64,000 bases of DNA from an uncultured Holophagales bacterium (GTDB lineage Bacteria; Acidobacteriota; Thermoanaerobaculia; Multivoradales; UBA5704), in the NCBI GenBank assembly GCA_963842525.1, contig CAWJGT010000009.1, positions 1,536,001-1,600,000 on the forward strand. The letters run 5' to 3'. Under the pieces are notes generated by a model that worked only from the letters and a program-made list of their open reading frames with translations, was not told where the DNA came from and searched no databases. This document shows positions 5,894-64,000 of this stretch, one piece after another. The translations under genes were made by a program, and so were the position numbers. Positions within the stretch are counted from its first letter, which is position 1. Each line of letters begins with the position of its first letter.

Positions 5894-46400
<40,507 letters not shown>

Positions 46401-46448
46401 AGCAGCTTGCAACGAGATCGGGTAGCAATCGATATCAAGGAGACAGCG

Positions 46449-46484
46449 ATGAATCAAGCACCGGCAGCCGGATTCCCCCTCACC
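46449..46484 (+). pseudogene. Remnant 5' end of an interface-A-T NRPS gene (MNQAPAAGFPLT), homologous to the start of 48655..52002
   Basis: RBS AAGGAG just upstream. Bases 46461-46484 match 48667-48690 at 21/24 nt with identical peptide PAAGFPLT, after which similarity stops. Confidence 0.7.
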
Positions 46485-46679
46485 ACCGCGCCGCGCCACG
46501 TGTTCGACCGCGCCATACACGAGTCGGGGGCGTGCTCCCCGAGCAGATCGACGAGGCAGGTGATCCAGCCCCTGCTGGGCGAGGGTCCAGAGGCACCGCT
46601 GGCTGACGCCCGACTCCCCGTGAGGATGTGGTCAATGTCGTTCGCAATGGAGTCCAATCCCGGCGGAGAGATCTCCGTC

Positions 46680-46708
46680 TTGCGAAGACTCTAGACAATG
46701 GTTATACT
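46680..46708 (+). promoter_or_regulatory. Putative sigma70-type promoter TTGCGA-N17-TATACT upstream of the radical SAM gene
   Basis: -35 TTGCGA at 46680-46685 (4/6 to TTGACA), 17-nt spacer, -10 TATACT at 46703-46708 (5/6 to TATAAT). It lies in the only long intergenic region of the window. Confidence 0.6.
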
Positions 46709-46912
46709 TGCTCGCTTGCTAGTGATTGGAGTTGCCCTCATGTTGTATCTACTGGCTGTCCTCCTCTCTTGTCGAGCTTCTTCGAACGGCGGGGGGATCG
46801 GGCGGCGCTTGGTGGCCTGCATCCTCGCCGGGCGATCCTTCTCGGGTTCCCGGCGGATCCTGGTAGTGATGGGGGACGGTGCGTTCCGAAGATGTTTGGA
46901 ATTCTCGTCCTC

Positions 46913-46928
46913 TTTTGAGTTCTCAAAA
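46913..46928. promoter_or_regulatory. AT-rich inverted repeat TTTTGAG-TT-CTCAAAA, candidate operator
   Basis: Perfect 7-bp arms with a 2-nt spacer, about 35 nt upstream of the GTG start at 46964. Confidence 0.35.
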
Positions 46929-46963
46929 CAATTTGACGGCGCAGCCGTTCAGGAGATCCGACT

Positions 46964-48622
46964 GTGAATGATCAGATTTCTCTGGACTGCATGGTCATAG
47001 GCTATAACGAGACCCCCTTCGAGCGATATGAGCAACTGCTGATGCAGTACGGGAGGGATACCGAAGCGTACCGCGACCTGCAACTCAGCTTTGTCGAGGT
47101 AGACGGACGGAAGCTGACTTATGCGGGGCTCCTGAGCTCGCTGTGGCACCAGGCCCGGGGCGCGTCCGACCCATGCCGGCAGGGGCCGTTCAAATCCGGT
47201 GACATTCCCAACCTTGCCGCAGTCTATCTCACTATCTATCTGCGGCGGCAGGGATTCACGGCGGACTACCTCAATCTTTTCCAAGACGAGAAGGATCGTT
47301 TGGCCGATATCCTCGCGCACGGAGTGCGTACAGTAGCGATTACCACAACGTTCTATGTTCTTAACTTCCCCGTGACCGAGATGGTCCAGTTCATCCGCAG
47401 CATCGATAGTGGAGTGAAGATCGTGGTGGGGGGGCCCCTCGTTGCAAACCATCTCCGCAATTACCATAACCAGGGCGATCTGATTACGGCATTGGACGAC
47501 ATCGGTGCTGACATCTATGTCCATGACTCGCAGGGTGAATGGACGCTCTGCCAAGTCCTGGCTGCTTTGAAGGGCAAGGGGGACCTCGGGCAGGTCCCCA
47601 ACCTGATCTACCGAGAAAACGGAACTTATCACCGCACGGCTGCACATGGGGAGAACAACTCGTTGGACGAGAACGCCATTGACTGGCGGATGCTGTCGGA
47701 TCACGACCTCGGGCCAACACTGCAGACCCGGACAGCGCGCAGCTGCGCCTTCTCCTGCTCGTTTTGCAACTACCCAACCCGTGCTGGTCGTCTGACTCTC
47801 GCCGGTCTCGACACATTGGAGCGGGAATTCAATTCGATGCGCGACTTGGGGAATATCGAGAATGTGATCTTCATCGATGATACCTTCAACGTGCCGCTGC
47901 CGCGGTTCAAGGAGATTTGCCGGCTTCTCATCGATCGTCAGTACGGTTTCAACTGGTACTCATATTTCCGGTGCAGTAACGCCGATGAGGAAACCTTCGA
48001 TCTCATGGCCGCGAGCGGATGCAAAGGTGTGTTTTTAGGTATTGAATCGGGCTCGCCGCGCATTCTCAAGAATATGAACAAGGCGGCAACAGTCGAGAAG
48101 TACGCAAATGGAATACGCAACCTCAAAGAGCGTGACATCCTCACCTTCGCATCCTTCATCGTCGGCTTCCCCGGGGAGACGCCGGAGACAGTGGGGGAGA
48201 CGGCCGAGTTCCTCACCAGCCACCGTCCGGACTATTATCGGGTCCAGCTCTGGTACAACGAACCAGGAACTCCGATCCATGACCAGGCCGATACCTACGG
48301 CATCATGGGAGACGGCTTCGTCTGGAATCACAAGACGATGGATAGCATGGAGGCGATGGATCACATCGAGCGACTGTTCCTGACCATCGATGGCCCCATC
48401 TGGTTGCCGCAATGGTCGTTTGATTTCTGGATCATTCCCTATTTTATGGGAATGGGGATCAGCCGCAAACAGTTCGATCATCAAATGCGGCTCGCACAGC
48501 AGCTTCTCAGCCTCGAGATCGCGTCCGTTGGACGGAGTACGCGTGAGAAGTTGCAGAACGAAATTCTGGGCGCCATGAAACGGGACATCGCCGGCTGGAA
48601 CCCCGCAGTCTCCAGCGCGTAA
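46964..48622 (+). CDS. Cobalamin-dependent (class B) radical SAM methyltransferase, PhpK/BcpD-like, 552 aa
   Basis: CxxxCxxC motif CAFSCSFC at 47744-47767. N-terminal B12-binding-like region (VAITTTFY...KIVVGGP). Class B motifs FIDDTFN, LGIESGS and FIVGFPGET. RBS AGGAG at 46951-46955. Subfamily assignment is from recall, not a search. Confidence 0.88.
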   Translation: MNDQISLDCMVIGYNETPFERYEQLLMQYGRDTEAYRDLQLSFVEVDGRKLTYAGLLSSLWHQARGASDPCRQGPFKSGDIPNLAAVYLTIYLRRQGFTADYLNLFQDEKDRLADILAHGVRTVAITTTFYVLNFPVTEMVQFIRSIDSGVKIVVGGPLVANHLRNYHNQGDLITALDDIGADIYVHDSQGEWTLCQVLAALKGKGDLGQVPNLIYRENGTYHRTAAHGENNSLDENAIDWRMLSDHDLGPTLQTRTARSCAFSCSFCNYPTRAGRLTLAGLDTLEREFNSMRDLGNIENVIFIDDTFNVPLPRFKEICRLLIDRQYGFNWYSYFRCSNADEETFDLMAASGCKGVFLGIESGSPRILKNMNKAATVEKYANGIRNLKERDILTFASFIVGFPGETPETVGETAEFLTSHRPDYYRVQLWYNEPGTPIHDQADTYGIMGDGFVWNHKTMDSMEAMDHIERLFLTIDGPIWLPQWSFDFWIIPYFMGMGISRKQFDHQMRLAQQLLSLEIASVGRSTREKLQNEILGAMKRDIAGWNPAVSSA

Positions 48623-48654
48623 TTGTGCCCTCGGCGAAGACTTAGAGGGTGTTT

Positions 48655-51600
48655 ATGGATAACCAACCGGCAGCGGGTTTCCCGCTCACCGAAAGCCAGC
48701 GGAGGCTCTGGTCCCTACGTCAGCAGGGGCTGGCGCCGCGAATTGCCTGCCTCGTTGATCTGATCGGAGAGTTCGAGCCCCAACTGGTGCGTAGAGCGAT
48801 AGAGCAGGTGGTACTGCGCCACGAGATGCTACGCACTGGTTTTCTGCGCAGGCCTGGGATGAGATTCCCGCTCCAAGTGCCGCGGGAGGCAGTGGCGGCT
48901 GGTTGGCTGGAGGTAGATCTTACAGAGGCGACAACTCCGGCGGCTGGCGACCGCTTCGAGGAACTCTGGCACCGCGAGCTGGTCTATGCGGCGGATCGCG
49001 AGGACGACCTCCTGAGGGCCGTGTTGATCACAAGGACGGGGAGCTGCTCCCTCTTGATCAGTGTGCCTTCCCTCTGCGCCGATGTTTTCTCACTGCGGCG
49101 GATCGTTGAGGAGGTGGCCCAAGTCTGCGCCGGCGGCGTGGAGGGCCTCGAAGACCCCGTGCCCTATCTCGACGTCGTTGAATGGCAGGGGAAACTGCTC
49201 ACTGGGAACGATGAGGAAGCTACCCGTGGGCGCGCCTTCTGGCGTCGGCAGGACCTCGGGGCGCTTCAGGCGCCATCTCTGCCATTCGAGGGCGGCTCCG
49301 GCCCTGCGCTCCGCGAGGACCGTGATGTGGTCCCCGCGCGAGTCAGCGTAGACACCGCATACGAGCTCCGTGCGGAGCTGTATACGGCTGCCGAGCGGCA
49401 TGGCGTCTCCCGCGTGGAGATCTTGCGTCTGGCTTGGCGGGTTCTGCTGGCACGCCTGTCAGGAGAGTCTACGTTCCTCCTCCACGAGCTCTTTGACGGT
49501 CGTAGCGACGAGCAACTCCTGTCCATGGTCGGCCCCTTATCACGCTGGATCCCACAGCGCGTTGAGGAGGTGGAAGACCACACTCTGGAGGAGGCTCTCC
49601 GCCGGGTCGGACGGCTCCATGTCGACTCCGAGGTCTGGCAACACCACCTGGAGTGGCCTGCGGAGGCCAATCCCGCGGTGGATGAGGCCATGGTGGGGTT
49701 CGTGGTTGAGTCCTGGCCCAGGTTCTCCGCCGGTGCGGGCCGGGCTCTCGCGGTGCGCCGTCGGCAGTCGTGGAGTGAGCCCTTTAAGCTCGTGCTCTGT
49801 TGTCTCGAGCTCGGAGAAGATCTGGCGGTCGAGCTGCATTATGACGCGAGTCGCCTGTCCCGGCCGGACGTGGAGCACACGGCGGCGCAGCTCGCCGTGC
49901 TTCTTGCGGGACTGAGCTCCGTCGAGCCTCGCTTGCGGCGGCTCTCTCTCACCGGCGAATCCGAAAGCCGAGTCCTGGCGCAGCTCTGCCGCGGAGAAGC
50001 GCTTCGGATCCCTGGGCAGCCGGTCCATCGTCTGATCGAGGCCCAGGCGGCGCTGATTCCGTTGGCGCCGGCGGTGATCTATGAAGATCTGGTCCTGTCC
50101 TACGGTGACCTTAATACCCGAGCCAACCAGCTCGGTCGTGTCCTTCGGCGCTTGGGCGTTACGCCCGACACTCCGGTGGCACTTTTTGTCGGACGCTCGC
50201 CCGAGCTGATGGTCGGGATGCTTGCGATCCTGAAGGCCGGCGGGGCCTACGTCCCCCTCGACGCTGCGCAGCCGAACCGCCGGCTTTCGATGGAGTTGGA
50301 CGACTTGGGGGTGCGGGTCATTGTTACGGAGAACGGTCTAGCCTCTCGGCTGTCCGATTTCCCCGGCGCGGTGGTCCGCATCGATGGCGACCAGGAGGAG
50401 ATCTCATGCGAGCCGAGGGTGGATCTCGAAAGGGGAAGCCTGCCGGAGAACCTCGCTTACATCATCTTCACCTCGGGGTCGACAGGCCGCTCCAAGGGGG
50501 TGGCCGTGGAGCACCGGCAGCTCCTCAATTACATTGAAGGGATCCGGACCCGGCTCAGCCTGGGGACGGGTTGGAGCTACGCCAACGTGTCCACGTTCGC
50601 GGCGGACCTTGGGAACACCACGGTATTCCCTGCGCTGACGAGCGGTGGCTGCCTGCACCTCGTCGCGCAGGAGAGGACTGCGGACCCCGCAGGCATGGTC
50701 GAGTATTTCGAACGGCACCCGGTGGACTGCCTGAAGATCGTGCCGACCCACCTGGAGGCCCTACACGCGATGGCCGAGCCGGAGCGCCTGCTGCCGCGCC
50801 GTCGCCTGGTACTGGGAGGGGAGGCCTCAAAGGTCCGGCATAGCGAGGAGCTGTCGCGGATTGCGGGGGAATGCCGGGTCTTCAACCACTACGGCCCGTC
50901 GGAAACCACCGTCGGCGTGCTCACGTACCCAGTGCCCACAGCCCTTGACAGCCGCTGCCGAACGCTCCCCATCGGCAGCCCGCTCCCCAACACCAGCGTC
51001 TATCTCCTCGACCGTGAAGGCAAGCGAGTGTCGGTCTGGGAGCCGGGAGAGATCCACATAGGCGGTGCCAGCGTGTCGCGCGGGTACTTCGGGCGTCCGG
51101 AGCTGACCGCCGAGAGCTTCGTGCCAGACCCCTTCGCGACGGAGCTGGGAATGCGGATGTACCGGACGGGGGACCTCGCCCGACTCCTGCCGGAAGGGAG
51201 TATCGAGTTCCTCGGTCGTCGCGACCACCAAGTCAAGTTCCATGGCTTCCGGGTGGAGCTCAACGAGATCCGGACACTGCTGAACACGCACCCGCAAATC
51301 CGCGACAGTGTGGTGCAGGCGATACGCGACCGGAATGGCCGCGACGCCCTGATCGCCTACTACGTCTCCCGCCAAGAGCTGGAGTTCGGCTCGCTGCGCG
51401 CCTGGCTCGCCCAGAGACTCGCCGAGGTGATCCTCCCCAACTTCTTCGTCCATCTGCGCAAGCTCCCTCTCACTCTGAACGGCAAGATCAACTATCAGGC
51501 GCTTCCCGGCATCGAAGAGGCCAAGCAGCAGGCGCGGAGCTCCTTCATCGCGCCGCGCACCGAGACCGAAGAGGAGGTGGCGAGAATCTGGTCCGAGGTT

Positions 51601-52002
51601 CTGGGTATCCATCCTGTAGGTGTAGGGGCCAATTTCTTCGAGCTCGGCGGGCACTCGCTCCTGGCCACCCGCATTATCTCCCGGCTGCGTGAGAGGTATC
51701 AGATCGACCTGCCGCTACGCGCGATCTTCGACACGCCAACCGTGGCGGCCCTTTCACGGTCCGTTGAGGCGCGGGCGGCGTCGGCCGCGGTGCCGCTGGC
51801 CGGCATGGGAGCGGAGCGGAGCATTGAGGACGATCTGGCCGAGTTGGAAGGGATCACGGATGAGCAAGCGCAAATCCTTCTTGAAGGCGCCGCTGATCAC
51901 CCCCAAGCGATCCCCGCGATGAAGGAGGCGATTCATCGACTTGCAGCGCTATCGTCCGGAGAAGCTTGCGCTTCCGCCACCGGAGAGATCCAGGATGAGT
52001 GA
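48655..52002 (+). CDS. NRPS interface(C-like, non-catalytic)-A(Asp)-T, 1115 aa
   Basis: The C-like domain has SVPSLCADVFS in place of HHxxxDG. Code DLTKVGHVGK matches Asp. T motif GGHSL. ATG 48655 follows GAGGG; GTG 48649 is an alternative start. Confidence 0.9.
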   Translation: MDNQPAAGFPLTESQRRLWSLRQQGLAPRIACLVDLIGEFEPQLVRRAIEQVVLRHEMLRTGFLRRPGMRFPLQVPREAVAAGWLEVDLTEATTPAAGDRFEELWHRELVYAADREDDLLRAVLITRTGSCSLLISVPSLCADVFSLRRIVEEVAQVCAGGVEGLEDPVPYLDVVEWQGKLLTGNDEEATRGRAFWRRQDLGALQAPSLPFEGGSGPALREDRDVVPARVSVDTAYELRAELYTAAERHGVSRVEILRLAWRVLLARLSGESTFLLHELFDGRSDEQLLSMVGPLSRWIPQRVEEVEDHTLEEALRRVGRLHVDSEVWQHHLEWPAEANPAVDEAMVGFVVESWPRFSAGAGRALAVRRRQSWSEPFKLVLCCLELGEDLAVELHYDASRLSRPDVEHTAAQLAVLLAGLSSVEPRLRRLSLTGESESRVLAQLCRGEALRIPGQPVHRLIEAQAALIPLAPAVIYEDLVLSYGDLNTRANQLGRVLRRLGVTPDTPVALFVGRSPELMVGMLAILKAGGAYVPLDAAQPNRRLSMELDDLGVRVIVTENGLASRLSDFPGAVVRIDGDQEEISCEPRVDLERGSLPENLAYIIFTSGSTGRSKGVAVEHRQLLNYIEGIRTRLSLGTGWSYANVSTFAADLGNTTVFPALTSGGCLHLVAQERTADPAGMVEYFERHPVDCLKIVPTHLEALHAMAEPERLLPRRRLVLGGEASKVRHSEELSRIAGECRVFNHYGPSETTVGVLTYPVPTALDSRCRTLPIGSPLPNTSVYLLDREGKRVSVWEPGEIHIGGASVSRGYFGRPELTAESFVPDPFATELGMRMYRTGDLARLLPEGSIEFLGRRDHQVKFHGFRVELNEIRTLLNTHPQIRDSVVQAIRDRNGRDALIAYYVSRQELEFGSLRAWLAQRLAEVILPNFFVHLRKLPLTLNGKINYQALPGIEEAKQQARSSFIAPRTETEEEVARIWSEVLGIHPVGVGANFFELGGHSLLATRIISRLRERYQIDLPLRAIFDTPTVAALSRSVEARAASAAVPLAGMGAERSIEDDLAELEGITDEQAQILLEGAADHPQAIPAMKEAIHRLAALSSGEACASATGEIQDE

Positions 52003-55000
52003 GCTCCAGCGGCGAATTGCAAAGCTTTCCCGAGATAAGAAAGCATTGTTGGTTTTGCGAAACCCGCTGTCATTTGCCCAGCGGCGTCTTTGGTTCCTCG
52101 AGCAGCTCGAGCCTGGCAACGCGTCTTACAACGTGCCGGCCGCGTTGCGCTTTTCGGGTCCGCTGGATGTCGGCGTGCTGCGGCGCAGCATGGCCGCAGT
52201 CGTAGCGCGTCACGCGATCCTTCGCACCTCGTTTCCTTCTTTTGACGGGCAGCCCTTCCAGATGGTCTCTCCTCCGTCGGAGATCCTTCTGCCGCTCGTG
52301 AGCCTGGAGATGCTTCCACCCGACTTGCAGGAGAGCGAAGCCCGGTGCATCGCTGAGCGGGAGGCCAGGCGCACCTTCGATCTCTCCGAAGGACCTCTGC
52401 TGCGAGCTAGCCTACTTCGTTTGGCAACAGAAGAGCACATCTTCCTTCTCAACCTGCACCACATCATCTGCGACGGCTGGTCGCGGGAGGTCCTGGTGCG
52501 GGAGGTGGCGGAGCTGTACGACGCTTCGTCGGCCGGGCGGCAACCGCACCTGCCTGAAGTGCCGATCCAGTATGTAGACTACGCCCGCTGGCAATATTCA
52601 TGGCTCAAGGGTGAGCAGGCGCGGATTCAACTCGCCTACTGGCGTCATCGCCTTGAGGGCTGCCCACCGCTGCTTGACTTGCCGACGAACCGCCCGCGGA
52701 AAGCCACGCCAAGCCATCAAGGGCGCGAGACGCACCGCCGGTTGCCTGAGTGCATTAGGGATGACCTCGACCGTTTGAAGAGAGAAGAACGAGCGACCAT
52801 CTTCATAGCCTGCCTGGCGGTCTTCAAGATATTGCTCTACCGGCTCTCTGGACAGCGTGATATAGCGGTAGGCACCCCAGTGACCAATCGTACCTGGTTG
52901 GAGACTGAGGGGCTGGTCGGCCTCTTCCTCAACATGCTGGTGCTGAGAACCGAAATACAGACTTCCTGCACGTTCCGACAGCTGCTTGCGCGAGTCCGGG
53001 AAGAGACCCTAGAGGCTTATGATCACCAGGACCTGCCATTCGAGTTGCTCGTGGACGAGCTACGACCGGAACGGAACTTGGGGGCTCACCCGTTGTTCCA
53101 GGTGATGTTCACCGAGGTGGAATTCCGGCCTGCACAGGCTTCACGGATAGGACTTCGAATCGAGCCCCTGGTCTTGGAGCGGCGGGCAGCCAAGTACGAC
53201 CTGAGCCTCGGCATCGGTGTCTGGAGCGACGGTATAGGTATCAATGCGGAGTGGCGGACTGAGCTGTTCGATGTGGCGACTGTGATACGGCTGCTAGGCC
53301 ACTTCGAAACATTGCTGACCTCGGCGGTGGCAAACCCCGATCGCCTCGTCAATGAGCTGCCGATCTTGACTGAGGGAGAGCGCTGGCACCTCATAGGAGA
53401 GTGGAACGATACGATTATCGATCAACCCTCCAAATGTATTCACCATCTGTTCGAGCAGAGTGCAGCCGAGGCCGGTGACCGCATTGCGCTCCTGTTCGAA
53501 AATCACTGCCTTACCTTCTCCCAGCTCGATTGCCTGGCGAACTGCGTCGCCGCACGGCTATTGGAGCTCGGACTAGGGACCGAAGCACCGGTGGGACTCT
53601 ATCTGGAGCGATCGCCGGAAATGGTGATCGGCATGCTCGGTGTCCTCAAGGCCGGAGGCTCCTATGTACCGCTCGATCCAAGTTTTCCGGAGGATCGGCT
53701 TGCCTTCATGGCCCAAGACGCCGGAGTCGAGATTCTGATGACGGGGCCTGAGCCTCCTGGAGGCCTCAAGCAGTGGGCAGTGCATACGATACACATCTGT
53801 GCCGAGGAGATATTGACGGCGCAAGCCCCCTTTCGTGCACGGGCCGAGCGGGTTCTGCCAGAGAACGTGGCTTACGTCCTCTACACCTCCGGCTCGACAG
53901 GACGTCCGAAGGGAGTGCGGATCACCCATCGCGCGGTCGTGAATTTCCTGTCTGCGATGGCGCGGCGCCCCGGATTAACGGAGCGGGACGTCCTCCTCGG
54001 CGTCACTACCCTGTCCTTCGACATCGCTGTCTTGGAGATCTTCCTGCCTCTTGTCATCGGAGCGCGACTGGTGCTCACCGGCCGCCGTACCTTGGCTGAC
54101 GGTCCGGCCCTGCTGCGCGCTCTTGAACGCTCGCAGGCGACGGTGATGCAGGGTACGCCCGCCACTTGGCGCCTGCTCCTCGCATCCGGCTGGCAGGGCG
54201 ATGGGCGGTTGAAGGTTTTGTGTGGAGGTGAAGCGCTGTCGCCGGATCTGGCGGATGCGCTGTTGCACGCCGGCGGCTCGCTGTGGAATCTTTATGGCCC
54301 CACTGAAACCACCGTGTGGTCGGTCACCGGAGAAGTGACGGCGGCAGGCGCGCCAATACCGATTGGTCGCCCGATCGCCAACACCAAGATCTATGTCCTT
54401 GCAAGCAGGCTCGCGCCGGCAGCGTTGGGCGCAGCGGGTGATCTTTATATCGGCGGCGACGGCCTGGCTCGGGACTACATCGGGCGCGCCGACCTCACCG
54501 CGGACAGCCTGATCCCCGATCCCTGGAGTGCCTCGCCAGGTGCTCGCCTCTACCGAACCGGTGATCGCGTGCGCTACTTCTCCGATGGTCGCCTTGAGTT
54601 TCTCGGCCGCAACGACCAGCAGATCAAGCTGCGGGGTCATCGCATCGAGTTAGGAGAAGTGGAGACCATTCTGGCACGCCATCCAGCCGTAGCGCAGACA
54701 GCGGTGGCGTTGCGCAGGGATGCTTCCGGGGAGAGCTGCCTCGTGGCCTATGTAGTGGCCTCTGGAGGTGACTCACCGGCGGCAGGTGAGCTGCAGCGAT
54801 TTCTGAGAGCGAAGCTGCCGCTCTATATGGTTCCAGCCGTCTTCATGATTCTAGATCGCCTTCCGTTGACACCCAATGGCAAGGTGAACCGCCGTGCTCT
54901 GCCCGACCCTGATGAACTGCGCAAAGCGGGCAGGCAGTTCGCTCCGGCGCAGACCCTGGTCCAGCAGAAAATCGTCGACGTCTGGGAGGAGGTGCTCAAG

Positions 55001-58000
55001 CTGCCGGGGATCGGCATTGCGGACAACTTCTTTGAGCTGGGGGGGCACTCCATACTTGCCACGCAGGTCATGGCCCGCCTGCGCAGCTCATTCGGGATTG
55101 AGGTACCCCTGCGAGATCTGTTCGAAGCTCCGACAGTAGCCGAAGTGAGCGAGCGGATCGAGGCCGCGCTGCGAGGGAGGATCGGTCTCCAGGTCCCCAC
55201 CATCGTAAAGCTTCCCAACCGAGATCGCATACCTCTATCGTTCGCGCAGCAACGGCTCTGGTTCCTAGATCAATTGGAGCCCGGAAGTTCCGTCTACAAT
55301 ATGTCCGTGGCTGTTCAGCTCCAGGGGAGTCTCGATGTCAGCGTCTTGGAGCGTACACTGGCCGAGATCATGCGGCGCCATGAGACGCTGCGGACCACCT
55401 TCTCTCTCGCGGGACAGGAACCGGTGCAGGTGATTGCTCTACAGGCTAGGCCAGCCGTGTCAGTGATCGACCTGCGCAACCTTGAGAGCGCGCGGTGCCA
55501 GGCTTTGACACAGCGGATCGTGCGTAGCTCGGCGACCGCGCCGTTCGACCTTTCGCGCCTGCCGCTGCTGCGGGTTTCGCTCCTCCTGCTGGCCGAGCAC
55601 GATCACATTATCCTCCTCACGCTGCACCATATCATCAGCGACGGCTGGTCGCTCGGCCTATTGATCCGCGAAATGGCAGCGATCTATGGAGCCTTTTCGC
55701 GACAGGCCCCCTCGCCGCTCCCCGAGCTGCCTGTGCAGTATGCCGATTACACTTTCTGGCAACGGGGTTGGTTGCAGGGTGAAACACTCGAGGTGCTTCT
55801 CAACTACTGGCGCAACCAGCTCAGTACAGGCATCTCGCCGATCGAGCTTCCGACCGATCGGCCTCGGCCACAGATCCAGAGCTACCGGGGTGCGCGGCGG
55901 TCCTTCAACATTGCGGTCCCCCAATCCCTCAGGAGCCTGATCCGCAAGAGCGAGGTAACCCTTTTCGCTCTGCTGATGGCGGTCTTGCATGTGCTCCTGC
56001 GCCGCTACTGCGGTCGCACTACCGTGACCGTCGGTTTCCCGGTCGCGAATCGCTCGCATGTAGAGATCGAGAAGCTGATCGGGTTCTTCGCCAACACCCT
56101 CGCGCTCCGCACGGAAATCACAGATCATCTGAAGTTTTCTGAGTTCCTGCAGCGGGTTAGCGAGACGGTTCTGGGAGCACTCGCCCATCAAGATATGCCG
56201 TTCGAGAAGCTGGTCGATGCCCTGGGGCCCGAGCGGGCGCTGGATCAGAACCCGATCTTCCAGGTCATGCTTGCACTCCAGAACGTCCCGTTGCCGACTC
56301 TTGAAATTTCGAAGCTGAGCGTGAGGCCTGTGGGCCTGGAGAGCGGAGTGTCCCGGTTTGATTGGCTTCTCTTCATGGAAGAGAGGGAGGGAAGCCTGCT
56401 CGGCAGCTTCGAATATTGCACTGACCTCTTCGATGCGGTGACGATCGCGCGGACTGTCGGCCACATCGAGTCGTTGCTGGGGAGGGTCGCCGTCGATCCA
56501 GAACAGCGGATCGACGACATCCCTATGCTGACCAGGAACGAATCGCACCAGACCCTGCTCGAGTGGAATGACCCGGGGTTCTCGAGATCTCCTTGGCAGG
56601 ACATCCCACAGCTCTTCGAGAGCCAGACCGAGATGAGCCCCGACACGGTTGCTGTCCGGTGGGAGGGCGACACTCTGACTTATCGGGAGCTGAATGCCCG
56701 GTCAAATGCCCTGGCCCGGCGCCTGCGGGCGCTGGGTGTCGGCCCGGATGTATTGGTCGCGGTCCACCTGGAGAGTTGTCTCGCACTATCCGTTGCGCTC
56801 CTGGCCATTTTGAAAGCGGGAGGTGCCTATCTTCCTCTCGACCCCTCTCATCCCAAGCAGCGGTTGGCCTTCTTGCTGGAGGACGCCGGCGTAGGGCTGA
56901 TCATCGCTGCAAGGGGGCCGGCCGAGGAGCCCAGGGTCCAGGGTATACCGGCCCTGTACATGGCGGAGAATGGGCAGGACGGCTGGGAAAGTGAACGCAA
57001 TCTCACACCCGTAGCGGAAAGTCAAAATCTGGCTTACGTGATCTATACGTCAGGATCGACGGGGAGGCCCAAGGGGGTGGCCATGACTCGCGGGGCTCTG
57101 GGCAACCTGCTGTCCTGGCAGCTCCGACAGTCCCGGCCGGCACCTGGAGCCGGCACCTTGCAGTTCGCTGCAACGACGTTCGACGTCTCCGCCCAGGAGA
57201 TCTTCTCGACCTGGTGTGCGGGCGGCACGCTGGTCCTGATTCCGGAGGCTCTGCGCCGGGACAGCTCCGCCCTCCTCGGTTTCCTCGCAGAATTACGGAT
57301 TGCGCGATTGTTCCTGCCCGTCGTGGCGCTCCAGCAACTTGCCGAGACCGCGCTCCGGGAAGAGCGCCGGCTCTTGCATCTGCGTGAGGTGGCTGTGGCG
57401 GGCGAGCAACTGCGGATCAGCGCGGAAATCCGTGACTTCTTCGAGCAGATCCCCAACTGTCAACTGCAGAACCATTATGGCCCGACCGAGAGCCATGTGG
57501 CAAGCGCCTTTACGCTCCTGGGTCCGCCTGCGACCTGGAGCACACTGCCGTACATCGGAAGACCGATCACCGGCGCAGCGATACACCTGCTGAGCCCATG
57601 TCTGCAGGCAGTACCCGCCGGAGTGGCAGGGGAGTTGTACATCGGCGGCGCAGGCTTGGCCCGGGGTTATATCAGCCGCGTCCAGCTGACGGCGGAGAGG
57701 TTTATCCCCGATGCCTTCAGCGGCGAGCCAGGATCACGCCTATACAGGACCGGAGACCTCGCTCGTCATCTGCCGGACGGCAACATCGAATTTCTCGGAC
57801 GCATGGATGACCAGATCAAGGTGAGAGGCTTCCGCGTCGAGCCGGGTGAGATCGAAGCTGTGCTCTGCCGCCACCCAGACGTCCGGCAGGCCGTGTCCAT
57901 GGCGCGGCAGAGGGCGCGCTACGGGACGGCGATCGTGGCCTACGTGGTCGCTGCCGAAGGGCGCAGCCCCACCGGACACGAGCTGCGACGTTGGCTGAAA

Positions 58001-59848
58001 GAGGAATTGCCGGAGCCGATGATCCCTGCAGCCTTCGTGGTTGTGGAGAGTCTCCCGCTGACGCGCAGCGGCAAGATCGATCGCCGGGCGCTGCCAGCAC
58101 CCTCTTGGGATCGATCCGGTATTGGAGAGGAGCTCACAGCGCCTCTCACCCCCGCAGAGGAGATCATCACCGGCATCTGGAGCGAGGTCCTGGGGATCGA
58201 GCGGCTGGGTGTCAACGACAACTTCTTTGACCTCGGAGGGCATTCCCTGCTGGCAACGAGGGTGATCTCCAGAATCCAGGATGTCTTTGGCGTCCCAGTG
58301 CCGCTGCGACTGCTTTTCGAGCGTCCAACGATCGCGGGGCTCGCGGTGGGAGTAGAAGCGGCGAAGCTGGCCGGCCTGGGATTGCAGGGTTCCCGGATCG
58401 AGCGCGCTCCCCGCACGGGTGCTCTGCCTCTCTCGTTCGCCCAGCAACGGCTTTGGTTCATAGATCAACTGGATCCCGGCAGCACTGCCTACAACCTCGC
58501 TGCGGCCGTGCGGCTGACCGGCATTCTTTCCCACCCAGCGCTGGAGAGAAGCTTCAAGGAGGTCCTGCGCCGGCACGAGGCCCTGCGGACGACTTTCGCG
58601 GAGAAGGAGGGCCGTCCGGTGCAGGTCATCGCGCCGCCTTCCCCGCGGACCCTGTCGGTCGTCGATCTGGAGAGCCTCTCTGGGATACAGCGAGATAGGG
58701 AGGTCCTTCGGATCGCCGAGGAAGCAGCCCGAGCGCCGTTCAACTTGAGCCGCGGTCCGCTCTTGAGGATCCTGCTGGTGAGGTCGACTGCACAGACGCA
58801 CGTCCTGACGCTGATTCTGCATCACATCGTCGCCGACGCCTGGTCGATGGGCATCCTCGTGCGCGAGATCGACACTCTTTATAGGGCCTTCCTCCACGGC
58901 CGCCCATCACCCTTGAACGAGCTCCCGATCCAGTACGCAGACTTTTCCTGCTGGCAAAGGGACTGGCTCCAGGGAGAGGTCCTGGAGACACATCTCGCGT
59001 ACTGGCGGCTGCGGCTAACCGGTGCGCCGTTGCTTCTGCTACCGACGGACCGTCCACGGCCGGCTGCCGACCCGCAGAAGGGGGGGCGCCGTTCTTTCTT
59101 TATGGAAGCGGAGCTGACCAGGTCCCTCAAACAGATCAGTCGCGCCGAAGGCGTAACGTTGTTCATGACCTTGCTTGCAGCATTCCAAAGCCTGCTCTGC
59201 TTCGCCGCAGGACAGGATGACGTGGTCGTTGGAGCAGACATCGCGAACCGCAACCGCCGTGAGACGGAAGGCCTGATCGGGTTTTTCGTCAACATGTTGG
59301 TGATGCGGGCCGATCTCGCGGGGAACCCCACTTTTCGCCAGCTGCTGCGGCGAGTGCGAGAGACGGCGCTTGGCGCTTTTGCGCACCAGGATCTACCGTT
59401 TGAGCGGGTGGTCGAGGAGCTGCGGCGAGAACGAACAGCACCGCAGCCATTTCAAGTTGTATTCAACTTCGACAACACCGCCGCGATCGCGGCGGCGGAC
59501 GATCGGCCCGTGGGTGATCTATCGATAGAGACGATAGACCTGGGAGGGACAGCCGTCAGGTTCGAGCTGGCTTTGGCGATGAGAGAGCACGCCAGCGGCC
59601 TGCGGGCCAGCTGGCTGTACAGTACAGATCTATTCGACGAGCTGACCGTCGACCGGATGCAGGCGCGGTTCGAGTCGATGCTCCGCTGCGTCGTCGCCAA
59701 TCCGGAAGTGCGCCTCAAGCAGCTCGAGCTGTCGAGCAGGTTGGAGCACGACGGCCGGGACCTGCAAGGTCGCGAGCGTGAGGAGCGTAAAAAAATGTTG
59801 CGGAGCGTAAAACCGAGAGCGATGCAGGTTGGACTCGATCTGGCATGA
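51995..59848 (+). CDS. NRPS C-A(Gly)-T-C-A(Pro)-T-C, 2617 aa
   Basis: Docking-like start MSELQRRIAKLSRDKKALL at ATG 51995. C motifs HHIICDG, HHIISDG and HHIVADA. Codes DILQLGLVWK (Gly) and DVQFAAHVAK (Pro). Carriers GGHSI and GGHSL. Ends with a terminal C domain. Confidence 0.93.
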   Translation: MSELQRRIAKLSRDKKALLVLRNPLSFAQRRLWFLEQLEPGNASYNVPAALRFSGPLDVGVLRRSMAAVVARHAILRTSFPSFDGQPFQMVSPPSEILLPLVSLEMLPPDLQESEARCIAEREARRTFDLSEGPLLRASLLRLATEEHIFLLNLHHIICDGWSREVLVREVAELYDASSAGRQPHLPEVPIQYVDYARWQYSWLKGEQARIQLAYWRHRLEGCPPLLDLPTNRPRKATPSHQGRETHRRLPECIRDDLDRLKREERATIFIACLAVFKILLYRLSGQRDIAVGTPVTNRTWLETEGLVGLFLNMLVLRTEIQTSCTFRQLLARVREETLEAYDHQDLPFELLVDELRPERNLGAHPLFQVMFTEVEFRPAQASRIGLRIEPLVLERRAAKYDLSLGIGVWSDGIGINAEWRTELFDVATVIRLLGHFETLLTSAVANPDRLVNELPILTEGERWHLIGEWNDTIIDQPSKCIHHLFEQSAAEAGDRIALLFENHCLTFSQLDCLANCVAARLLELGLGTEAPVGLYLERSPEMVIGMLGVLKAGGSYVPLDPSFPEDRLAFMAQDAGVEILMTGPEPPGGLKQWAVHTIHICAEEILTAQAPFRARAERVLPENVAYVLYTSGSTGRPKGVRITHRAVVNFLSAMARRPGLTERDVLLGVTTLSFDIAVLEIFLPLVIGARLVLTGRRTLADGPALLRALERSQATVMQGTPATWRLLLASGWQGDGRLKVLCGGEALSPDLADALLHAGGSLWNLYGPTETTVWSVTGEVTAAGAPIPIGRPIANTKIYVLASRLAPAALGAAGDLYIGGDGLARDYIGRADLTADSLIPDPWSASPGARLYRTGDRVRYFSDGRLEFLGRNDQQIKLRGHRIELGEVETILARHPAVAQTAVALRRDASGESCLVAYVVASGGDSPAAGELQRFLRAKLPLYMVPAVFMILDRLPLTPNGKVNRRALPDPDELRKAGRQFAPAQTLVQQKIVDVWEEVLKLPGIGIADNFFELGGHSILATQVMARLRSSFGIEVPLRDLFEAPTVAEVSERIEAALRGRIGLQVPTIVKLPNRDRIPLSFAQQRLWFLDQLEPGSSVYNMSVAVQLQGSLDVSVLERTLAEIMRRHETLRTTFSLAGQEPVQVIALQARPAVSVIDLRNLESARCQALTQRIVRSSATAPFDLSRLPLLRVSLLLLAEHDHIILLTLHHIISDGWSLGLLIREMAAIYGAFSRQAPSPLPELPVQYADYTFWQRGWLQGETLEVLLNYWRNQLSTGISPIELPTDRPRPQIQSYRGARRSFNIAVPQSLRSLIRKSEVTLFALLMAVLHVLLRRYCGRTTVTVGFPVANRSHVEIEKLIGFFANTLALRTEITDHLKFSEFLQRVSETVLGALAHQDMPFEKLVDALGPERALDQNPIFQVMLALQNVPLPTLEISKLSVRPVGLESGVSRFDWLLFMEEREGSLLGSFEYCTDLFDAVTIARTVGHIESLLGRVAVDPEQRIDDIPMLTRNESHQTLLEWNDPGFSRSPWQDIPQLFESQTEMSPDTVAVRWEGDTLTYRELNARSNALARRLRALGVGPDVLVAVHLESCLALSVALLAILKAGGAYLPLDPSHPKQRLAFLLEDAGVGLIIAARGPAEEPRVQGIPALYMAENGQDGWESERNLTPVAESQNLAYVIYTSGSTGRPKGVAMTRGALGNLLSWQLRQSRPAPGAGTLQFAATTFDVSAQEIFSTWCAGGTLVLIPEALRRDSSALLGFLAELRIARLFLPVVALQQLAETALREERRLLHLREVAVAGEQLRISAEIRDFFEQIPNCQLQNHYGPTESHVASAFTLLGPPATWSTLPYIGRPITGAAIHLLSPCLQAVPAGVAGELYIGGAGLARGYISRVQLTAERFIPDAFSGEPGSRLYRTGDLARHLPDGNIEFLGRMDDQIKVRGFRVEPGEIEAVLCRHPDVRQAVSMARQRARYGTAIVAYVVAAEGRSPTGHELRRWLKEELPEPMIPAAFVVVESLPLTRSGKIDRRALPAPSWDRSGIGEELTAPLTPAEEIITGIWSEVLGIERLGVNDNFFDLGGHSLLATRVISRIQDVFGVPVPLRLLFERPTIAGLAVGVEAAKLAGLGLQGSRIERAPRTGALPLSFAQQRLWFIDQLDPGSTAYNLAAAVRLTGILSHPALERSFKEVLRRHEALRTTFAEKEGRPVQVIAPPSPRTLSVVDLESLSGIQRDREVLRIAEEAARAPFNLSRGPLLRILLVRSTAQTHVLTLILHHIVADAWSMGILVREIDTLYRAFLHGRPSPLNELPIQYADFSCWQRDWLQGEVLETHLAYWRLRLTGAPLLLLPTDRPRPAADPQKGGRRSFFMEAELTRSLKQISRAEGVTLFMTLLAAFQSLLCFAAGQDDVVVGADIANRNRRETEGLIGFFVNMLVMRADLAGNPTFRQLLRRVRETALGAFAHQDLPFERVVEELRRERTAPQPFQVVFNFDNTAAIAAADDRPVGDLSIETIDLGGTAVRFELALAMREHASGLRASWLYSTDLFDELTVDRMQARFESMLRCVVANPEVRLKQLELSSRLEHDGRDLQGREREERKKMLRSVKPRAMQVGLDLA

Positions 59849-59863
59849 CCGAGGCTACTCAAA

Positions 59864-60889
59864 ATGTCTGAAAAATTGAGCGACAGATTCAATCGGACCA
59901 TTGGTGCTAAACCCAAGTCCCTGTGGCTTTCCAGTGAGGACCCCGTACGATTCGAGCGACTCCTGCCGGAGCGCGATTTGCCTTTGCTGGCCAAGCCCAA
60001 CATGAGTGACATCGATCTGGCCGCCTGGGCAGCGGCCAGCCGCGGACCCGTCGCCGAGCGGCTCACGCGGGCGGGTGGCATCCTATTTCGTGGTTTCAGT
60101 ATCCGCTCTGTCGAAGAATTCGAGCGGTTGTGCAGGGCCGTGTCCCCCGTGCTAATGGACTATAGCGAGAGATCGACGCCGCGCAGTGAGGTCAGCGGCA
60201 AGATCTATACCTCGACCGAGTACCCGGCCGACCAGAACATCCCATTTCACAACGAGCTCTCCTATGCGCAGCGCTGGCCCTTGAAGATCTGGTTTTTCTC
60301 GCTCAAGCCCGCCGCTCAGGGAGGCGAGACCCCGATCGCTGACAGCCGCGCCGTCTTTCGCCGGATTCCCCCCGCGATCAGGGATCGGTTTATCGAGAAA
60401 AATGTGATGTATGTGCGCAACTTTGGCTCGGGACTGGGCTTGAGCTGGCGAGAGGTTTTCCAAACCGAGGAGAAAGCCGTGGTGGAAGATCATTGCCGGA
60501 GAGCTGACATCGAGTTCGAATGGGGGCCAGGAGAGCGGTTGCGAACGAAGGCGATCCGGCCGGCCGTCGCCCAGCATCCTCAGACGGGAGACATCGTGTG
60601 GTTCAACCAGGCGCATTTGCATCATATATCGAGCCTGCCTGCTGCAGAGCGTACCTCCTTGTTGGAGGTCATTTCGCAAGATGAGCTTCCCTTCAATACC
60701 TTTTATGGCGACGGTACGGAGATCGCAGACGAAGACCTGGACGAGATCCGGCAAGCCTACCAGGAGGCCGCGGTGTATTTCCCCTGGGAGGAGGGTGACG
60801 TCTTGATGTTGGACAACATGCTCGTGGCCCACGGCCGGACCTCCTATACGGGACCACGCAAGATCGTGGTGGCGATGGCGGAGGCCTGA
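59864..60889 (+). CDS. Stand-alone TauD/SyrP-like Fe(II)/2-oxoglutarate dioxygenase (probable carrier-bound amino acid beta-hydroxylase), 341 aa
   Basis: Motifs GGILFRGF, IYTSTEYP, IPFHNELSY, GGETPIAD, WFNQAHL and DNMLVAHGRTSY; GAGG RBS at 59851. Confidence 0.92.
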   Translation: MSEKLSDRFNRTIGAKPKSLWLSSEDPVRFERLLPERDLPLLAKPNMSDIDLAAWAAASRGPVAERLTRAGGILFRGFSIRSVEEFERLCRAVSPVLMDYSERSTPRSEVSGKIYTSTEYPADQNIPFHNELSYAQRWPLKIWFFSLKPAAQGGETPIADSRAVFRRIPPAIRDRFIEKNVMYVRNFGSGLGLSWREVFQTEEKAVVEDHCRRADIEFEWGPGERLRTKAIRPAVAQHPQTGDIVWFNQAHLHHISSLPAAERTSLLEVISQDELPFNTFYGDGTEIADEDLDEIRQAYQEAAVYFPWEEGDVLMLDNMLVAHGRTSYTGPRKIVVAMAEA

Positions 60890-60920
60890 GGAAAAGGTTC
60901 CTGTTCGGAGGCCCCAGCAG

Positions 60921-63900: not shown

Positions 63901-64000
63901 GGACACTCGCTGCTGGCTACGCAACTGATATCGCGGGTGCGCAAGGTCTTCCGCATAGATCTCCCTCTGCGCGCTCTGTTCGAGGCGCCTCAACTGGACC
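60921..64000 (+). CDS. NRPS interface-A(Glu)-T, 3'-partial, with a +1 frameshift at ~62424 (sequencing error or pseudogene)
   Basis: The C-like domain has SLPSLCADSWS with no HH. Removing one A from GGAA at 62421-62424 restores LGARPDRPVALCLERS...KAGGAYVPLD. The shifted frame contains YTSGSTGRPKG, FDASVKQ, FDCTPS, LIGGE, NVYGPTECTVD (code DAKDLGVVDK, Glu), NGKVDR and GGHSL up to the window end. Confidence 0.88.

What the first reader, a model, noticed from the sequence alone, without database searches (positions are those of the whole stretch)
46401..48700. Recombination scar: an orphan gene start duplicates the N-terminus of the gene 2.2 kb downstream
Seen: 48 nt after the C-TauD stop, a good RBS and ATG (46449) encode MNQAPAAGFPLT, and the frame then loses NRPS similarity. 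The intact I-A-T gene starts MDNQPAAGFPLT (48655). The 24-nt cores differ only at three synonymous third positions (GCC/GCG, GGA/GGT, CCC/CCG). Inference: the native I-A-T gene once followed TauD directly. It was truncated when a block from a related but diverged cluster (radical SAM plus its own I-A-T and downstream genes) was joined on. The synonymous divergence argues against a simple target-site duplication.
Basis: partly seen in the sequence, partly recalled or inferred. Interest (0 to 1): 0.75.

Follow-up and report, generated by a model that had tools for sequence, protein, structure and literature searches.

The report
Junction scar in a hybrid NRPS cluster
The short stretch between two genes of a giant peptide-synthetase cluster holds broken leftovers of genes from two different parent clusters, so it marks where two related clusters were joined into one.

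Summary
The 563-nt spacer (46401-46963) lies between the C-TauD stop and the radical SAM start.

It holds three relics:
- An RBS, an ATG and 12 codons that copy the start of the I-A-T gene.
- Directly after them, an inverted and frameshifted copy of I-A-T codons 14-55 (E 2e-11). This inversion is why the frame "loses similarity".
- A frameshifted copy of the last ~25 codons of TauD at 46823-46899, just before the radical SAM gene.

Third-codon-position GC (GC3) drops at the spacer from ~0.93 on the left to ~0.73 on the right. Each relic keeps the GC3 of its own side: the I-A-T relic 34/38 against 27/38 for the live gene, the TauD relic 19/27 against 27/27.

Relatives show both parent layouts intact: C-TauD→I-A-T, and C-TauD→radical SAM→I-A-T.

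A contig from a soil metagenome of another study (~92% identical) spans the junction. There the relic is further eroded, so misassembly and a conserved small gene are both unlikely.

The best reading is an illegitimate join of two diverged sister clusters. Which half was resident is unresolved, no parental cluster was found, and whether the hybrid works is unknown. This is a clear example of a known process.

The parts
45408..46400 (+). TauD-family domain at the C-terminus of the ~10,800-aa NRPS (ORF 14028-46400). Stop TGA at 46398-46400. This is the end of the high-GC3 half.
   Evidence: Pfam TauD, 169 bits, after C-A-T-C-A-T-C. GC3 is 0.87-0.95 in 300-nt steps from 45201 to 46100.
46401..46448 (+). 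Spacer with the RBS AAGGAGA (46437-46443), 5 nt before the orphan ATG.
   Evidence: Sequence read.
46449..46484 (+). Relic i-1: a direct copy of codons 1-12 of an I-A-T gene (MNQAPAAGFPLT). It heads an 81-codon junk frame that stops at 46692-46694.
   Evidence: 78% identical over 36 nt to 48655-48690. Of 12 codons, 6 are identical, 3 synonymous and 3 non-synonymous. No Pfam or NCBIfam family for the 81-aa product.
46488..46604 (-). Relic i-2: an inverted, decayed copy of I-A-T codons 14-55, with an 8-nt and a 1-nt deletion.
   Evidence: 70.6% over 126 columns to 48694-48819, E 2.3e-11. The reverse-strand translation reads SQRCLWTLAQQGL..ITCLVDLLGEH... Of 38 ungapped codons, 19 are identical, 6 synonymous and 13 non-synonymous. 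GC3 is 34/38 against 27/38 in the live gene.
46605..46822 (.). Filler of unknown origin, GC 0.57. The join between the two lineages lies somewhere here. It contains one promoter-like site, TTGCGA-17-TATACT, at 46680-46708.
   Evidence: No credible blastx match to any protein of the locus. No repeat elsewhere in the genome. No Rfam match, and fold z-score -0.16 for the whole spacer. Promoter scan.
46823..46899 (+). Relic T': a decayed copy of the last ~25 codons of a TauD domain (RSFSGSRRILVVMGD / VRSEDVW). A 2-nt deletion shifts the frame between the two pieces.
   Evidence: Local alignment to 46297-46379. blastx shows 10/15 and 7/7 identical residues. Of 27 ungapped codons, 9 are identical, 8 synonymous and 10 non-synonymous. 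GC3 is 19/27 against 27/27 in the live TauD tail.
46900..46963 (+). Spacer with the RBS AGGAGA (46951-46956) for the radical SAM gene. Both T' reading frames stay open until 46965-46967 and 46969-46971.
46964..48622 (+). B12-binding radical SAM methyltransferase (552 aa, GTG start, CAFSCSFC cluster motif at residue 261). First gene of the lower-GC3 half.
   Evidence: Pfam B12-binding plus Radical_SAM. NCBIfam TIGR04479, PhpK family, 637 bits against a cut-off of 600. GC3 0.66-0.77. Motif.
48655..52002 (+). Intact I-A-T gene (1115 aa): a condensation-like interface domain without HHxxxDG, then an adenylation domain and a carrier domain.
   Evidence: Pfam Condensation at only 104 bits, plus AMP-binding and PP-binding. 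VPSLCAD stands where HHxxxDG would be. GC3 0.66-0.86.

Best explanation
The 563-nt spacer is the physical join of a hybrid NRPS/PKS gene cluster.

Two homologous but diverged 'sister' clusters were the parents:
- Parent A has high GC3. Its giant NRPS ended in C-TauD and was followed directly by its own I-A-T gene.
- Parent B has lower GC3. Its C-TauD was followed by a B12 radical SAM gene and then its I-A-T gene.

A non-homologous (illegitimate) join linked parent A, cut after codon ~55 of its I-A-T gene, to parent B, cut ~25-30 codons before the end of its TauD domain. Both cut ends survive as dead relics.
- In the parent-A relic, codons 14-55 were flipped, either during the join or later.
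- About 218 nt of unassignable filler lie between the two relics.

The result keeps the working order C-TauD | (radical SAM) | I-A-T. The terminal C-TauD of one lineage now faces the interface-A-T module of the other.

Shown: the relics, their orientation, their decay, the compositional step, the existence of both parental layouts, and the independent bridging contig.

Inferred: the order of events, that one event made both cuts, and that the hybrid assembly line works.

Unresolved: which half was resident.
For: 1. Three relics lie in parental order.
 - Direct I-A-T codons 1-12.
 - Inverted codons 14-55 (E 2.3e-11).
 - TauD tail (E 6e-6).
 - Sources. They are the spacer's only genome-wide matches below E 1e-3.

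2. Composition steps at the spacer.
 - Per-kb GC is 0.69-0.77 over 1-45000 and 0.57-0.66 over 47001-64000.
 - GC3 is 0.87-0.98 in the last 5 kb of the giant NRPS, including its TauD domain.
 - GC3 is 0.66-0.77 in the radical SAM gene and 0.66-0.86 in I-A-T.
 - Whole genes read 0.89-0.94 on the left and 0.72-0.77 on the right.

3. Each relic has the GC3 of its own side.
 - Inverted I-A-T relic: 34/38 against 27/38 in the live gene. P(>=34/38) is 0.012 at the right-half rate of 0.73.
 - TauD relic: 19/27 against 27/27 in the live tail. Fisher p is 0.004, and P(<=19/27) is 4e-4 at the left-half rate of 0.93.

4. Differences between relics and live copies pile up at third codon positions.
 - They number 18, 14 and 30 at positions 1, 2 and 3 (chi-square p 0.035).
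 - VRSEDVW is kept through 4 synonymous changes.
 - So much of the divergence arose while both copies were under selection, before the join.

5. The lost genes were close kin of the live ones.
 - 34 of 50 ungapped relic codons encode the same residue as the live I-A-T.
 - Seven other I or C domains share only 14-21 of 53-55 residues over the same stretch.
 - The tail VRSEDVW is shared by T and T' and by none of the 8 relatives' TauD tails read.

6. Both layouts occur intact in relatives.
 - Of the 9 loci L021-L029, 6 have C-TauD→I-domain.
 - One of those 9 (L021, same family) has TauD→radical SAM→I-domain, as does L018 (same order).

7. Misassembly is unlikely.
 - A 1896-nt contig of run X3, from a different study and ~92% identical, covers 45003-46466 and 46669-46947.
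 - The longest identical runs between the copies are 13, 9 and 9 nt.
Against: - No parental-type cluster was recovered.
 - The best I-A-T relatives are 48% identical among 300 genomes of the order.
 - They are at most 34% identical in the 5.8-billion-protein collection.
 - Radical SAM relatives in metagenome contigs are 57-63% identical.
- TauD and I-domain trees of 9 rows each had no supported branch.
- The relics are short: 50 and 27 ungapped codons.
- The direct GC3 comparison of the I-A-T relic with the live gene is only p 0.08.
- The 218-nt filler is unexplained.
- The mechanism of the inversion is unknown.
- The stretch 46947-47045, from the TauD relic into the radical SAM gene, is not bridged by any contig that was laid.
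- The direction of transfer is ambiguous.
 - The right half has the lowest GC3 among this genome's megasynthase genes.
 - The left half, in turn, is a >99th-percentile GC island flanked by low-GC DNA on both sides.
Confidence: 0.8

Rival explanations
1. In-situ tandem duplication. One cluster with the order TauD→radical SAM→I-A-T duplicated the segment from the TauD tail to the I-A-T head and lost the first radical SAM copy. The spare copies then decayed.
For: It predicts the observed order: TauD, I-A-T head, TauD tail, radical SAM, I-A-T. The relics are each other's closest known kin.
Against: - It does not explain the GC3 step of ~0.2 between all genes to the left and all genes to the right.
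- It does not explain why each relic carries the GC3 of one side.
- Pure decay should spread changes evenly over codon positions, but they number 18, 14 and 30.
Confidence: 0.07
2. Only the radical SAM gene is foreign. It was inserted between TauD and a native I-A-T gene, and the insertion duplicated the flanks.
For: The radical SAM gene has the lowest GC of the locus, 0.50-0.60. Most relatives lack it at this position: 6 of the 9 loci L021-L029.
Against: - I-A-T and every gene downstream for ~45 kb share the lower GC3 of 0.72-0.77, not the left half's 0.89-0.94.
- The copies are 70-78% identical rather than near-identical, and no mobile-element gene lies between them.
- TauD→radical SAM→I-domain is an established layout elsewhere.
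Confidence: 0.04
3. Assembly chimera. Two organisms' clusters were joined by the assembler.
For: The compositional step is abrupt. Soil metagenome runs hold related sequence. Genome contamination is estimated at 3.4%.
Against: - The contig is 1.98 Mb long.
- The two sides share no repeat longer than 13 nt that could mislead an assembler.
- A contig from a different study spans TauD, the orphan start and the TauD relic.
- A chimera would not place relics of both partners in register.
Confidence: 0.03
4. The spacer encodes something functional: a small protein (the 81-codon frame at 46449, or the 89-codon frame at 46698 with a hydrophobic start), or a leader or regulatory RNA for the radical SAM operon.
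For: The RBS and ATG at 46449 are intact. There is one promoter-like site at 46680-46708, against 0.2 expected. The 46698 frame begins with a membrane-helix-like stretch.
Against: - In the ~92% relative, 202 nt of the 46449 frame are missing, and net 10-nt indels at 46711-46731 break the 46698 frame.
- Neither frame matches a protein family.
- There is no Rfam match, and the fold is no better than shuffles, z -0.16.
Confidence: 0.04

Closest known systems
Recombination-driven diversification of NRPS genes and clusters. Sources: Baunach et al. 2021, PMC8097286 (abstract and a word search seen); Booth et al. 2022, PMC9205934 (abstract and a word search seen); Medema et al. 2014, PMC4256081 (search listing and abstract only).
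   Same: New assembly lines arise by joining parts of related synthetase clusters. Here too a hybrid line results, and module order is preserved.
   Different: By their abstracts, those studies describe recombination as the driver of NRPS and assembly-line change. Here the join lies between genes, is non-homologous, and left ~560 nt of debris from both parents. The words remnant, scar, relic, pseudogene and GC content do not occur in the first two papers.
NRPS-fused TauD-type aspartyl beta-hydroxylase with a downstream interface (I) domain module. Described by Reitz et al. 2019 (recalled, not held). antiSMASH 8 added profiles for these beta-hydroxylases and interface domains (PMC12230676, passage seen).
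   Same: A C-TauD terminus is followed by a gene that opens with a condensation-like domain lacking HHxxxDG, then A-T.
   Different: Here the TauD and the interface module come from different lineages. A B12 radical SAM gene sits between them, as it does in two relatives.
Homology-facilitated illegitimate recombination and pseudogene relics at horizontal-transfer junctions (recalled from general knowledge; no paper read).
   Same: It is a non-homologous join with filler DNA and truncated gene ends, next to homologous sequence.
   Different: No anchor region or microhomology could be identified, because the exact breakpoint lies in unassignable filler. An inversion of 117 nt accompanies the join.
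Target-site duplication of a transposable element.
   Same: There are direct repeats on both sides of an inserted gene.
   Different: The repeats are 36 nt at 78% identity, 2.2 kb apart, and differ at synonymous sites. No transposase lies between them, and the next 117 nt are inverted.

Membership tests
Gene relic (pseudogene fragment) at a recombination junction | Significant homology to a functional gene | tested here: met
   E 2.3e-11 for I-A-T codons 14-55 and E 6e-6 for the TauD tail. Genome-wide the values are 2.7e-9 and 7e-4.
Gene relic (pseudogene fragment) at a recombination junction | Truncated and frame-broken, so it cannot encode the parent protein | tested here: met
   Only 55 codons of ~1115 are present, and codons 14-55 are inverted with 8-nt and 1-nt deletions. 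The TauD relic is ~25 codons long with a 2-nt deletion.
Gene relic (pseudogene fragment) at a recombination junction | Not conserved as a gene in close relatives | tested here: met
   The X3 contig (~92% identical) lacks 202 nt of it and carries further small indels. This rests on one contig at depth 6.
Gene relic (pseudogene fragment) at a recombination junction | The two flanks have different evolutionary origin | tested here: met
   By composition only: GC3 is 0.89-0.94 against 0.72-0.77, and the relics match their own sides. Phylogenetic confirmation failed for lack of close relatives.
Fused TauD beta-hydroxylase plus interface-domain module (beta-hydroxy-Asp type) | TauD-family domain fused behind a C domain at the NRPS C-terminus | tested here: met
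   Pfam TauD, 169 bits, at residues 2492-2781 of the 2798-aa tail, preceded by a Condensation domain.
Fused TauD beta-hydroxylase plus interface-domain module (beta-hydroxy-Asp type) | The next gene opens with a condensation-like domain lacking the HHxxxDG catalytic motif | tested here: met
   VPSLCAD aligns to HHIISDG of a canonical C domain. All 6 I-type domains in the alignment have non-His residues at both His columns, 5 of them as xPxxCAD and L018 as APALGCD.
Fused TauD beta-hydroxylase plus interface-domain module (beta-hydroxy-Asp type) | Adenylation domain specific for aspartate | tested here: inconclusive
   The ten specificity positions were read by eye from the A-domain sequence printed, using recalled GrsA numbering. 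They give DLTKVGHVGK, which is 9 of 10 of the recalled Asp code DLTKVGHIGK. No predictor was run.
PhpK-family B12-dependent radical SAM methyltransferase | Passes the curated family cut-off and has a B12-binding domain, a radical SAM domain and CxxxCxxC | tested here: met
   TIGR04479 at 637 bits against a cut-off of 600. Pfam PF02310 and PF04055. CAFSCSFC at residue 261. The substrate was not tested.
Transposon target-site duplication | Short, (near-)identical direct repeats that immediately flank a mobile element | tested here: not met
   78% identity over 36 nt. The interval holds a radical SAM gene and no transposase.

The most novel reading that the evidence does not exclude
The hybrid is a working assembly line. 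A C-TauD terminus from one lineage condenses onto and hydroxylates the residue carried by an interface-A-T module from another lineage. The split C-TauD | I-A-T protein boundary would then be a naturally validated point at which whole halves of giant lipopeptide clusters can be exchanged. The scar would date and document such an exchange, which is shared by soil strains ~8% diverged.
Probability: 0.3. Interest if true: 0.65.

Novelty: new member of a known kind. Interest (0 to 1): 0.45.

Why it matters
Exchange of parts between synthetase clusters is usually inferred from conflicting trees. Here the breakpoint itself is preserved, with leftovers of both parents.
- The cut points can be read to within ~220 nt. 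One lies inside the I-A-T gene at codon ~55. The other lies ~25-30 codons before the end of the other parent's TauD domain.
- The join is non-homologous and lies at a boundary between proteins.
- The join predates the split of strains that are now ~92% identical.

If the hybrid makes a product, the C-TauD | interface-domain boundary would be a natural fusion site for engineering large lipopeptide lines. If it does not, the locus is a dated example of how such clusters die.

Tried and rejected
- The search for related loci with the I domain in genome contigs gave one distant locus at 29%.
- The search for related loci with the radical SAM protein in metagenome contigs gave 9 loci at 57-63%.
 - None had a TauD hit next to it.
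 - None carried the scar.
- The protein collection gave no full-length relative of the I domain above 34% among 11 hits, and 2 short hits at 33%. An intact copy of the lost gene was therefore not found.
- TauD and I-domain trees of 9 rows each had 0 supported branches, so they give no verdict on discordance.
- Flank synteny in the 5 same-genus genomes was uninformative. Matches were at most 80% identical and scattered over many small contigs.
- No NRPS fragments were found at the outer borders of the cluster.
- There was no Rfam family and no unusual RNA fold in the spacer.
- blastx of 46605-46822 against all proteins of the locus gave only chance-level matches.
- Earlier-findings look-ups returned nothing.
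- Read laying:
 - No laid contig covers 46947-47045, and none spans the whole stretch.
 - Run X1 holds 100%-identical short contigs that bridge nothing.
 - The small word shares (at most 0.19) are not used as evidence of habitat.
- An apparent difference within run X3 comes from separate short contigs that may belong to different strains, so it was not used. The TauD part is ~92% identical and the radical SAM pieces ~98%.

Full report
**Observation**

- The giant NRPS ORF (14028-46400) ends with TGA at 46398-46400.
- 48 nt later, behind AAGGAGA (46437-46443), ATG 46449 opens MNQAPAAGFPLT. The frame runs 81 codons to a stop at 46692-46694.
- The I-A-T gene starts at ATG 48655 with MDNQPAAGFPLT.
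- The 24-nt cores differ only at three synonymous third positions.

Alone, this match is borderline: 25 nt at 88% identity, E 0.011 within the window.

A self-comparison of 46250-47000 against the window and a repeat search show two more relics.
- Directly after the 12 direct codons, 46488-46604 is the reverse complement of 48694-48819.
  - That stretch is codons 14-55 of the I-A-T gene.
  - Identity is 70.6% over 126 columns, E 2.3e-11.
  - The reverse strand reads SQRCLWTLAQQGL..ITCLVDLLGEH.., broken by an 8-nt and a 1-nt deletion.
  - The frame "loses NRPS similarity" because this piece is inverted, not because the gene stops.
- 46823-46899 is a decayed direct copy of the TauD tail 46297-46379.
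  - It reads RSFSGSRRILVVMGD, then VRSEDVW after a 2-nt deletion.
  - It lies 65 nt before the radical SAM start, GTG 46964.

Against the whole 9.95-Mb genome these two are the spacer's only matches below E 1e-3, at 2.7e-9 and 7e-4. The 218 nt between them (46605-46822) match nothing.

**Genes around the spacer**

Pfam gives:
- ..C-A-T-C-A-T-C-TauD for the end of the giant NRPS.
- B12-binding plus Radical_SAM for 46964-48622.
- A weak Condensation hit (104 bits) plus A-T for 48655-52002.
- C-A-T-C-A-T-C for 51941-59848.
- A free-standing TauD at 59864-60889, followed by another C-like-A-T gene.

The radical SAM protein passes the NCBIfam cut-off for the PhpK methyltransferase family, 637 against 600 bits.

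The first domain of I-A-T has VPSLCAD where a canonical C domain has HHIISDG. All 6 I-type domains in the alignment have non-His residues at both His columns, 5 of them as xPxxCAD. This fits the non-catalytic interface domain that accompanies siderophore-type beta-hydroxylases (PMC12230676, passage seen; the original description is recalled and not held).

Read by eye, the A domain's specificity residues are Asp-like. This rests on recalled numbering and is not a tool result.

**Composition**

- Per-kb GC is 0.69-0.77 over 1-45000 and 0.57-0.66 over 47001-64000.
- The drop is in third codon positions and falls at the spacer.
  - GC3 is 0.87-0.98 through the last 5 kb of the giant NRPS, TauD domain included.
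  - GC3 is 0.66-0.77 in the radical SAM gene and 0.66-0.86 in I-A-T.
- Whole-gene GC3 is 0.89-0.94 for the four left-hand genes and 0.72-0.77 for the right-hand megasynthase genes.
- The relics follow their sides.
  - The inverted I-A-T relic has GC3 34/38 against 27/38 in the live gene. P is 0.012 under the right-half rate, but only 0.08 by direct Fisher test.
  - The TauD relic has 19/27 against 27/27 in the live tail. Fisher p is 0.004, and P is 4e-4 under the left-half rate.
- Differences between relic and live copy number 18, 14 and 30 at codon positions 1, 2 and 3, among 83, 79 and 81 compared bases (chi-square p 0.035).

Much of the divergence therefore arose under selection, before the copies became relics.

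**Relatedness of the parents**

- 34 of 50 ungapped relic codons encode the same residue as the live I-A-T.
- Seven other I or C domains share 14-21 of 53-55 residues over that stretch.
- The tail VRSEDVW occurs in both TauD copies and in none of the 8 relatives' tails read.

The parents were sister clusters.

**Relatives**

- The radical SAM gene has no close orthologue in 40 related genomes. The best matches are 62% and 61%, and an own-genome paralogue is 60%.
- A DNA search of 91 other genomes of the family returned 9 loci.
  - Six have C-TauD followed directly by an I-domain gene (L022, L024, L025, L026, L028, L029).
  - One has TauD→radical SAM→I-domain (L021).
  - Two hold the radical SAM gene without a TauD in the stretch held (L023, L027).
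- L018, from a genome of another family in the same order, also has TauD→radical SAM→I-domain.
- None of the 150 listed matches covers the spacer. A further 140 matches were not listed.

Both parental layouts are thus real architectures. Neither parent itself was found, and the trees were unresolved.

**Is the join real?**

- The window lies in a 1.98-Mb contig.
- The duplicated pieces share no identical run longer than 13 nt. Neither an assembler nor homologous recombination has a repeat to act on.
- In run X3, from a different study than the run with 100%-identical contigs, one 1896-nt contig covers both sides.
  - It is ~92% identical: 112 mismatches over 45003-46466.
  - It covers 45003-46466 and 46669-46947.
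  - It skips 202 nt and has 23 other letters in between.
  - It therefore joins the high-GC3 TauD and the orphan start to the low-GC stretch with the TauD relic.
  - Most of the I-A-T relic is deleted in it, and small indels (net 10 nt at 46711-46731) are present.
- Run X2 holds 151-nt contigs over 46519-46669 and 46717-46867, with 5 and 3 mismatches.

These results argue against a chimeric assembly and against a conserved small gene, and they show continuing erosion. No contig that was laid bridges 46947-47045.

**Wider context**

The cluster runs from about C9:1,525,400 to 1,632,200.
- The left half holds a lanthipeptide-dehydratase-N-like gene and a fatty-acyl-AMP-ligase-type starter NRPS.
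- The right half holds further NRPS and PKS genes, a third TauD, a MacB-type transporter, a carbamoyltransferase, a methyltransferase and a CmlA-like hydroxylase.

Which half was resident is open.
- The right half has the lowest GC3 among the genome's ~110 ORFs of 1500 aa or more. Most of those read 0.83-0.95, and the genome median is 0.835.
- The left half is a GC island above the 99th percentile of 5-kb windows, with 0.59-0.67 GC on both sides.
- A 3.4-kb IS element brackets the whole 115-kb segment in inverted orientation, at C9:1514678-1518050 and 1633078-1636452.
  - It carries an rve/Mu-type transposase and an AAA_22 gene.
  - It has six full copies at 99.9% identity in the genome.
  - Its copies are near-identical, whereas the scar is shared with a strain ~8% diverged, so the IS insertions are probably younger than the scar.

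**Verdict**

It is a well-preserved junction scar of a hybrid NRPS cluster, formed by a non-homologous join of two diverged sister clusters at the C-TauD | I-A-T boundary.

Recombination between such clusters is well known (PMC8097286 and PMC9205934; abstracts and word searches seen). This is therefore a new example of a known process rather than a new kind of thing. Its value is that the breakpoint can be read directly.

Still unknown:
- Whether the hybrid line works. A frameshift near 62.43 kb may break a downstream NRPS.
- How the inversion arose.
- What the filler is.

Noticed in passing
window 62400-62450 (ORFs 60921-62681 and 62269-end): The C-like-A-T.. NRPS gene behind the free-standing TauD is split by a +1 frameshift at the start of its A domain. 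Pfam AMP-binding positions 1-46 lie in one frame and 43-384 in the other. The site reads CTCGGAAGCTCGG and is not a long homopolymer. It may be a real inactivation of the right half or a sequencing error.
   Followed up: partly
window 46964-48622; L021 (G043:C286); L018 (G027:C1); G000:C3:504447-506042: A PhpK-family B12 radical SAM methyltransferase sits between a fused TauD domain and an interface-A-T gene in three separate clusters. A 60% paralogue in the same genome lies between two NRPS genes with no TauD. It probably methylates the residue loaded by the next module, but the substrate is unknown.
   Followed up: partly
G000:C9:1514678-1518050 and 1633078-1636452 (outside the window; L030, L034): Two inverted copies of a 3,375-nt IS (rve/Mu-type transposase plus an AAA_22 gene) bracket the whole ~115-kb cluster. 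The genome holds six full copies at 99.9% identity and two partial ones. Further transposase genes lie at C9:1518075-1519706 (Mutator family) and L034:4712-5386 (DDE_Tnp_1).
   Followed up: partly
L034 about 8780-8945 (G000:C9 about 1,640,780-1,640,945): A ~150-nt element between a VWA gene and a TPR gene matches dozens of places, on both strands, in each of the five same-genus genomes at 74-88% identity. It looks like a palindromic REP/MITE-like repeat.
   Followed up: no
L031:5392-8112 (G000:C9:1525392-1528112): The high-GC half opens with a lanthipeptide-dehydratase-N-terminal-like gene (Pfam Lant_dehydr_N, 135 bits) just before an NRPS with a fatty-acyl-AMP-ligase-type starter. This is an unusual partner for an NRPS line.
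   Followed up: no
window 46698-46967: An 89-codon frame with a hydrophobic, helix-like start (MVILARLLVIGVALMLYLLAVLLS) runs through the TauD relic and ends in the GTGA overlap with the radical SAM start. It has no family match, and indels break it in the related X3 contig.
   Followed up: yes
whole genome G000: The 9.95-Mb genome holds about 110 open frames of 1500 aa or more, many in long runs on contigs C3, C19 and C34. That is an unusually large megasynthase load.
   Followed up: no
window 59848-60921: The right half contains a second TauD→interface-domain junction. There the TauD is a separate gene, starting 15 nt after the preceding NRPS stop, rather than a fused domain. The two TauD copies are 48-49% identical.
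   Followed up: partly
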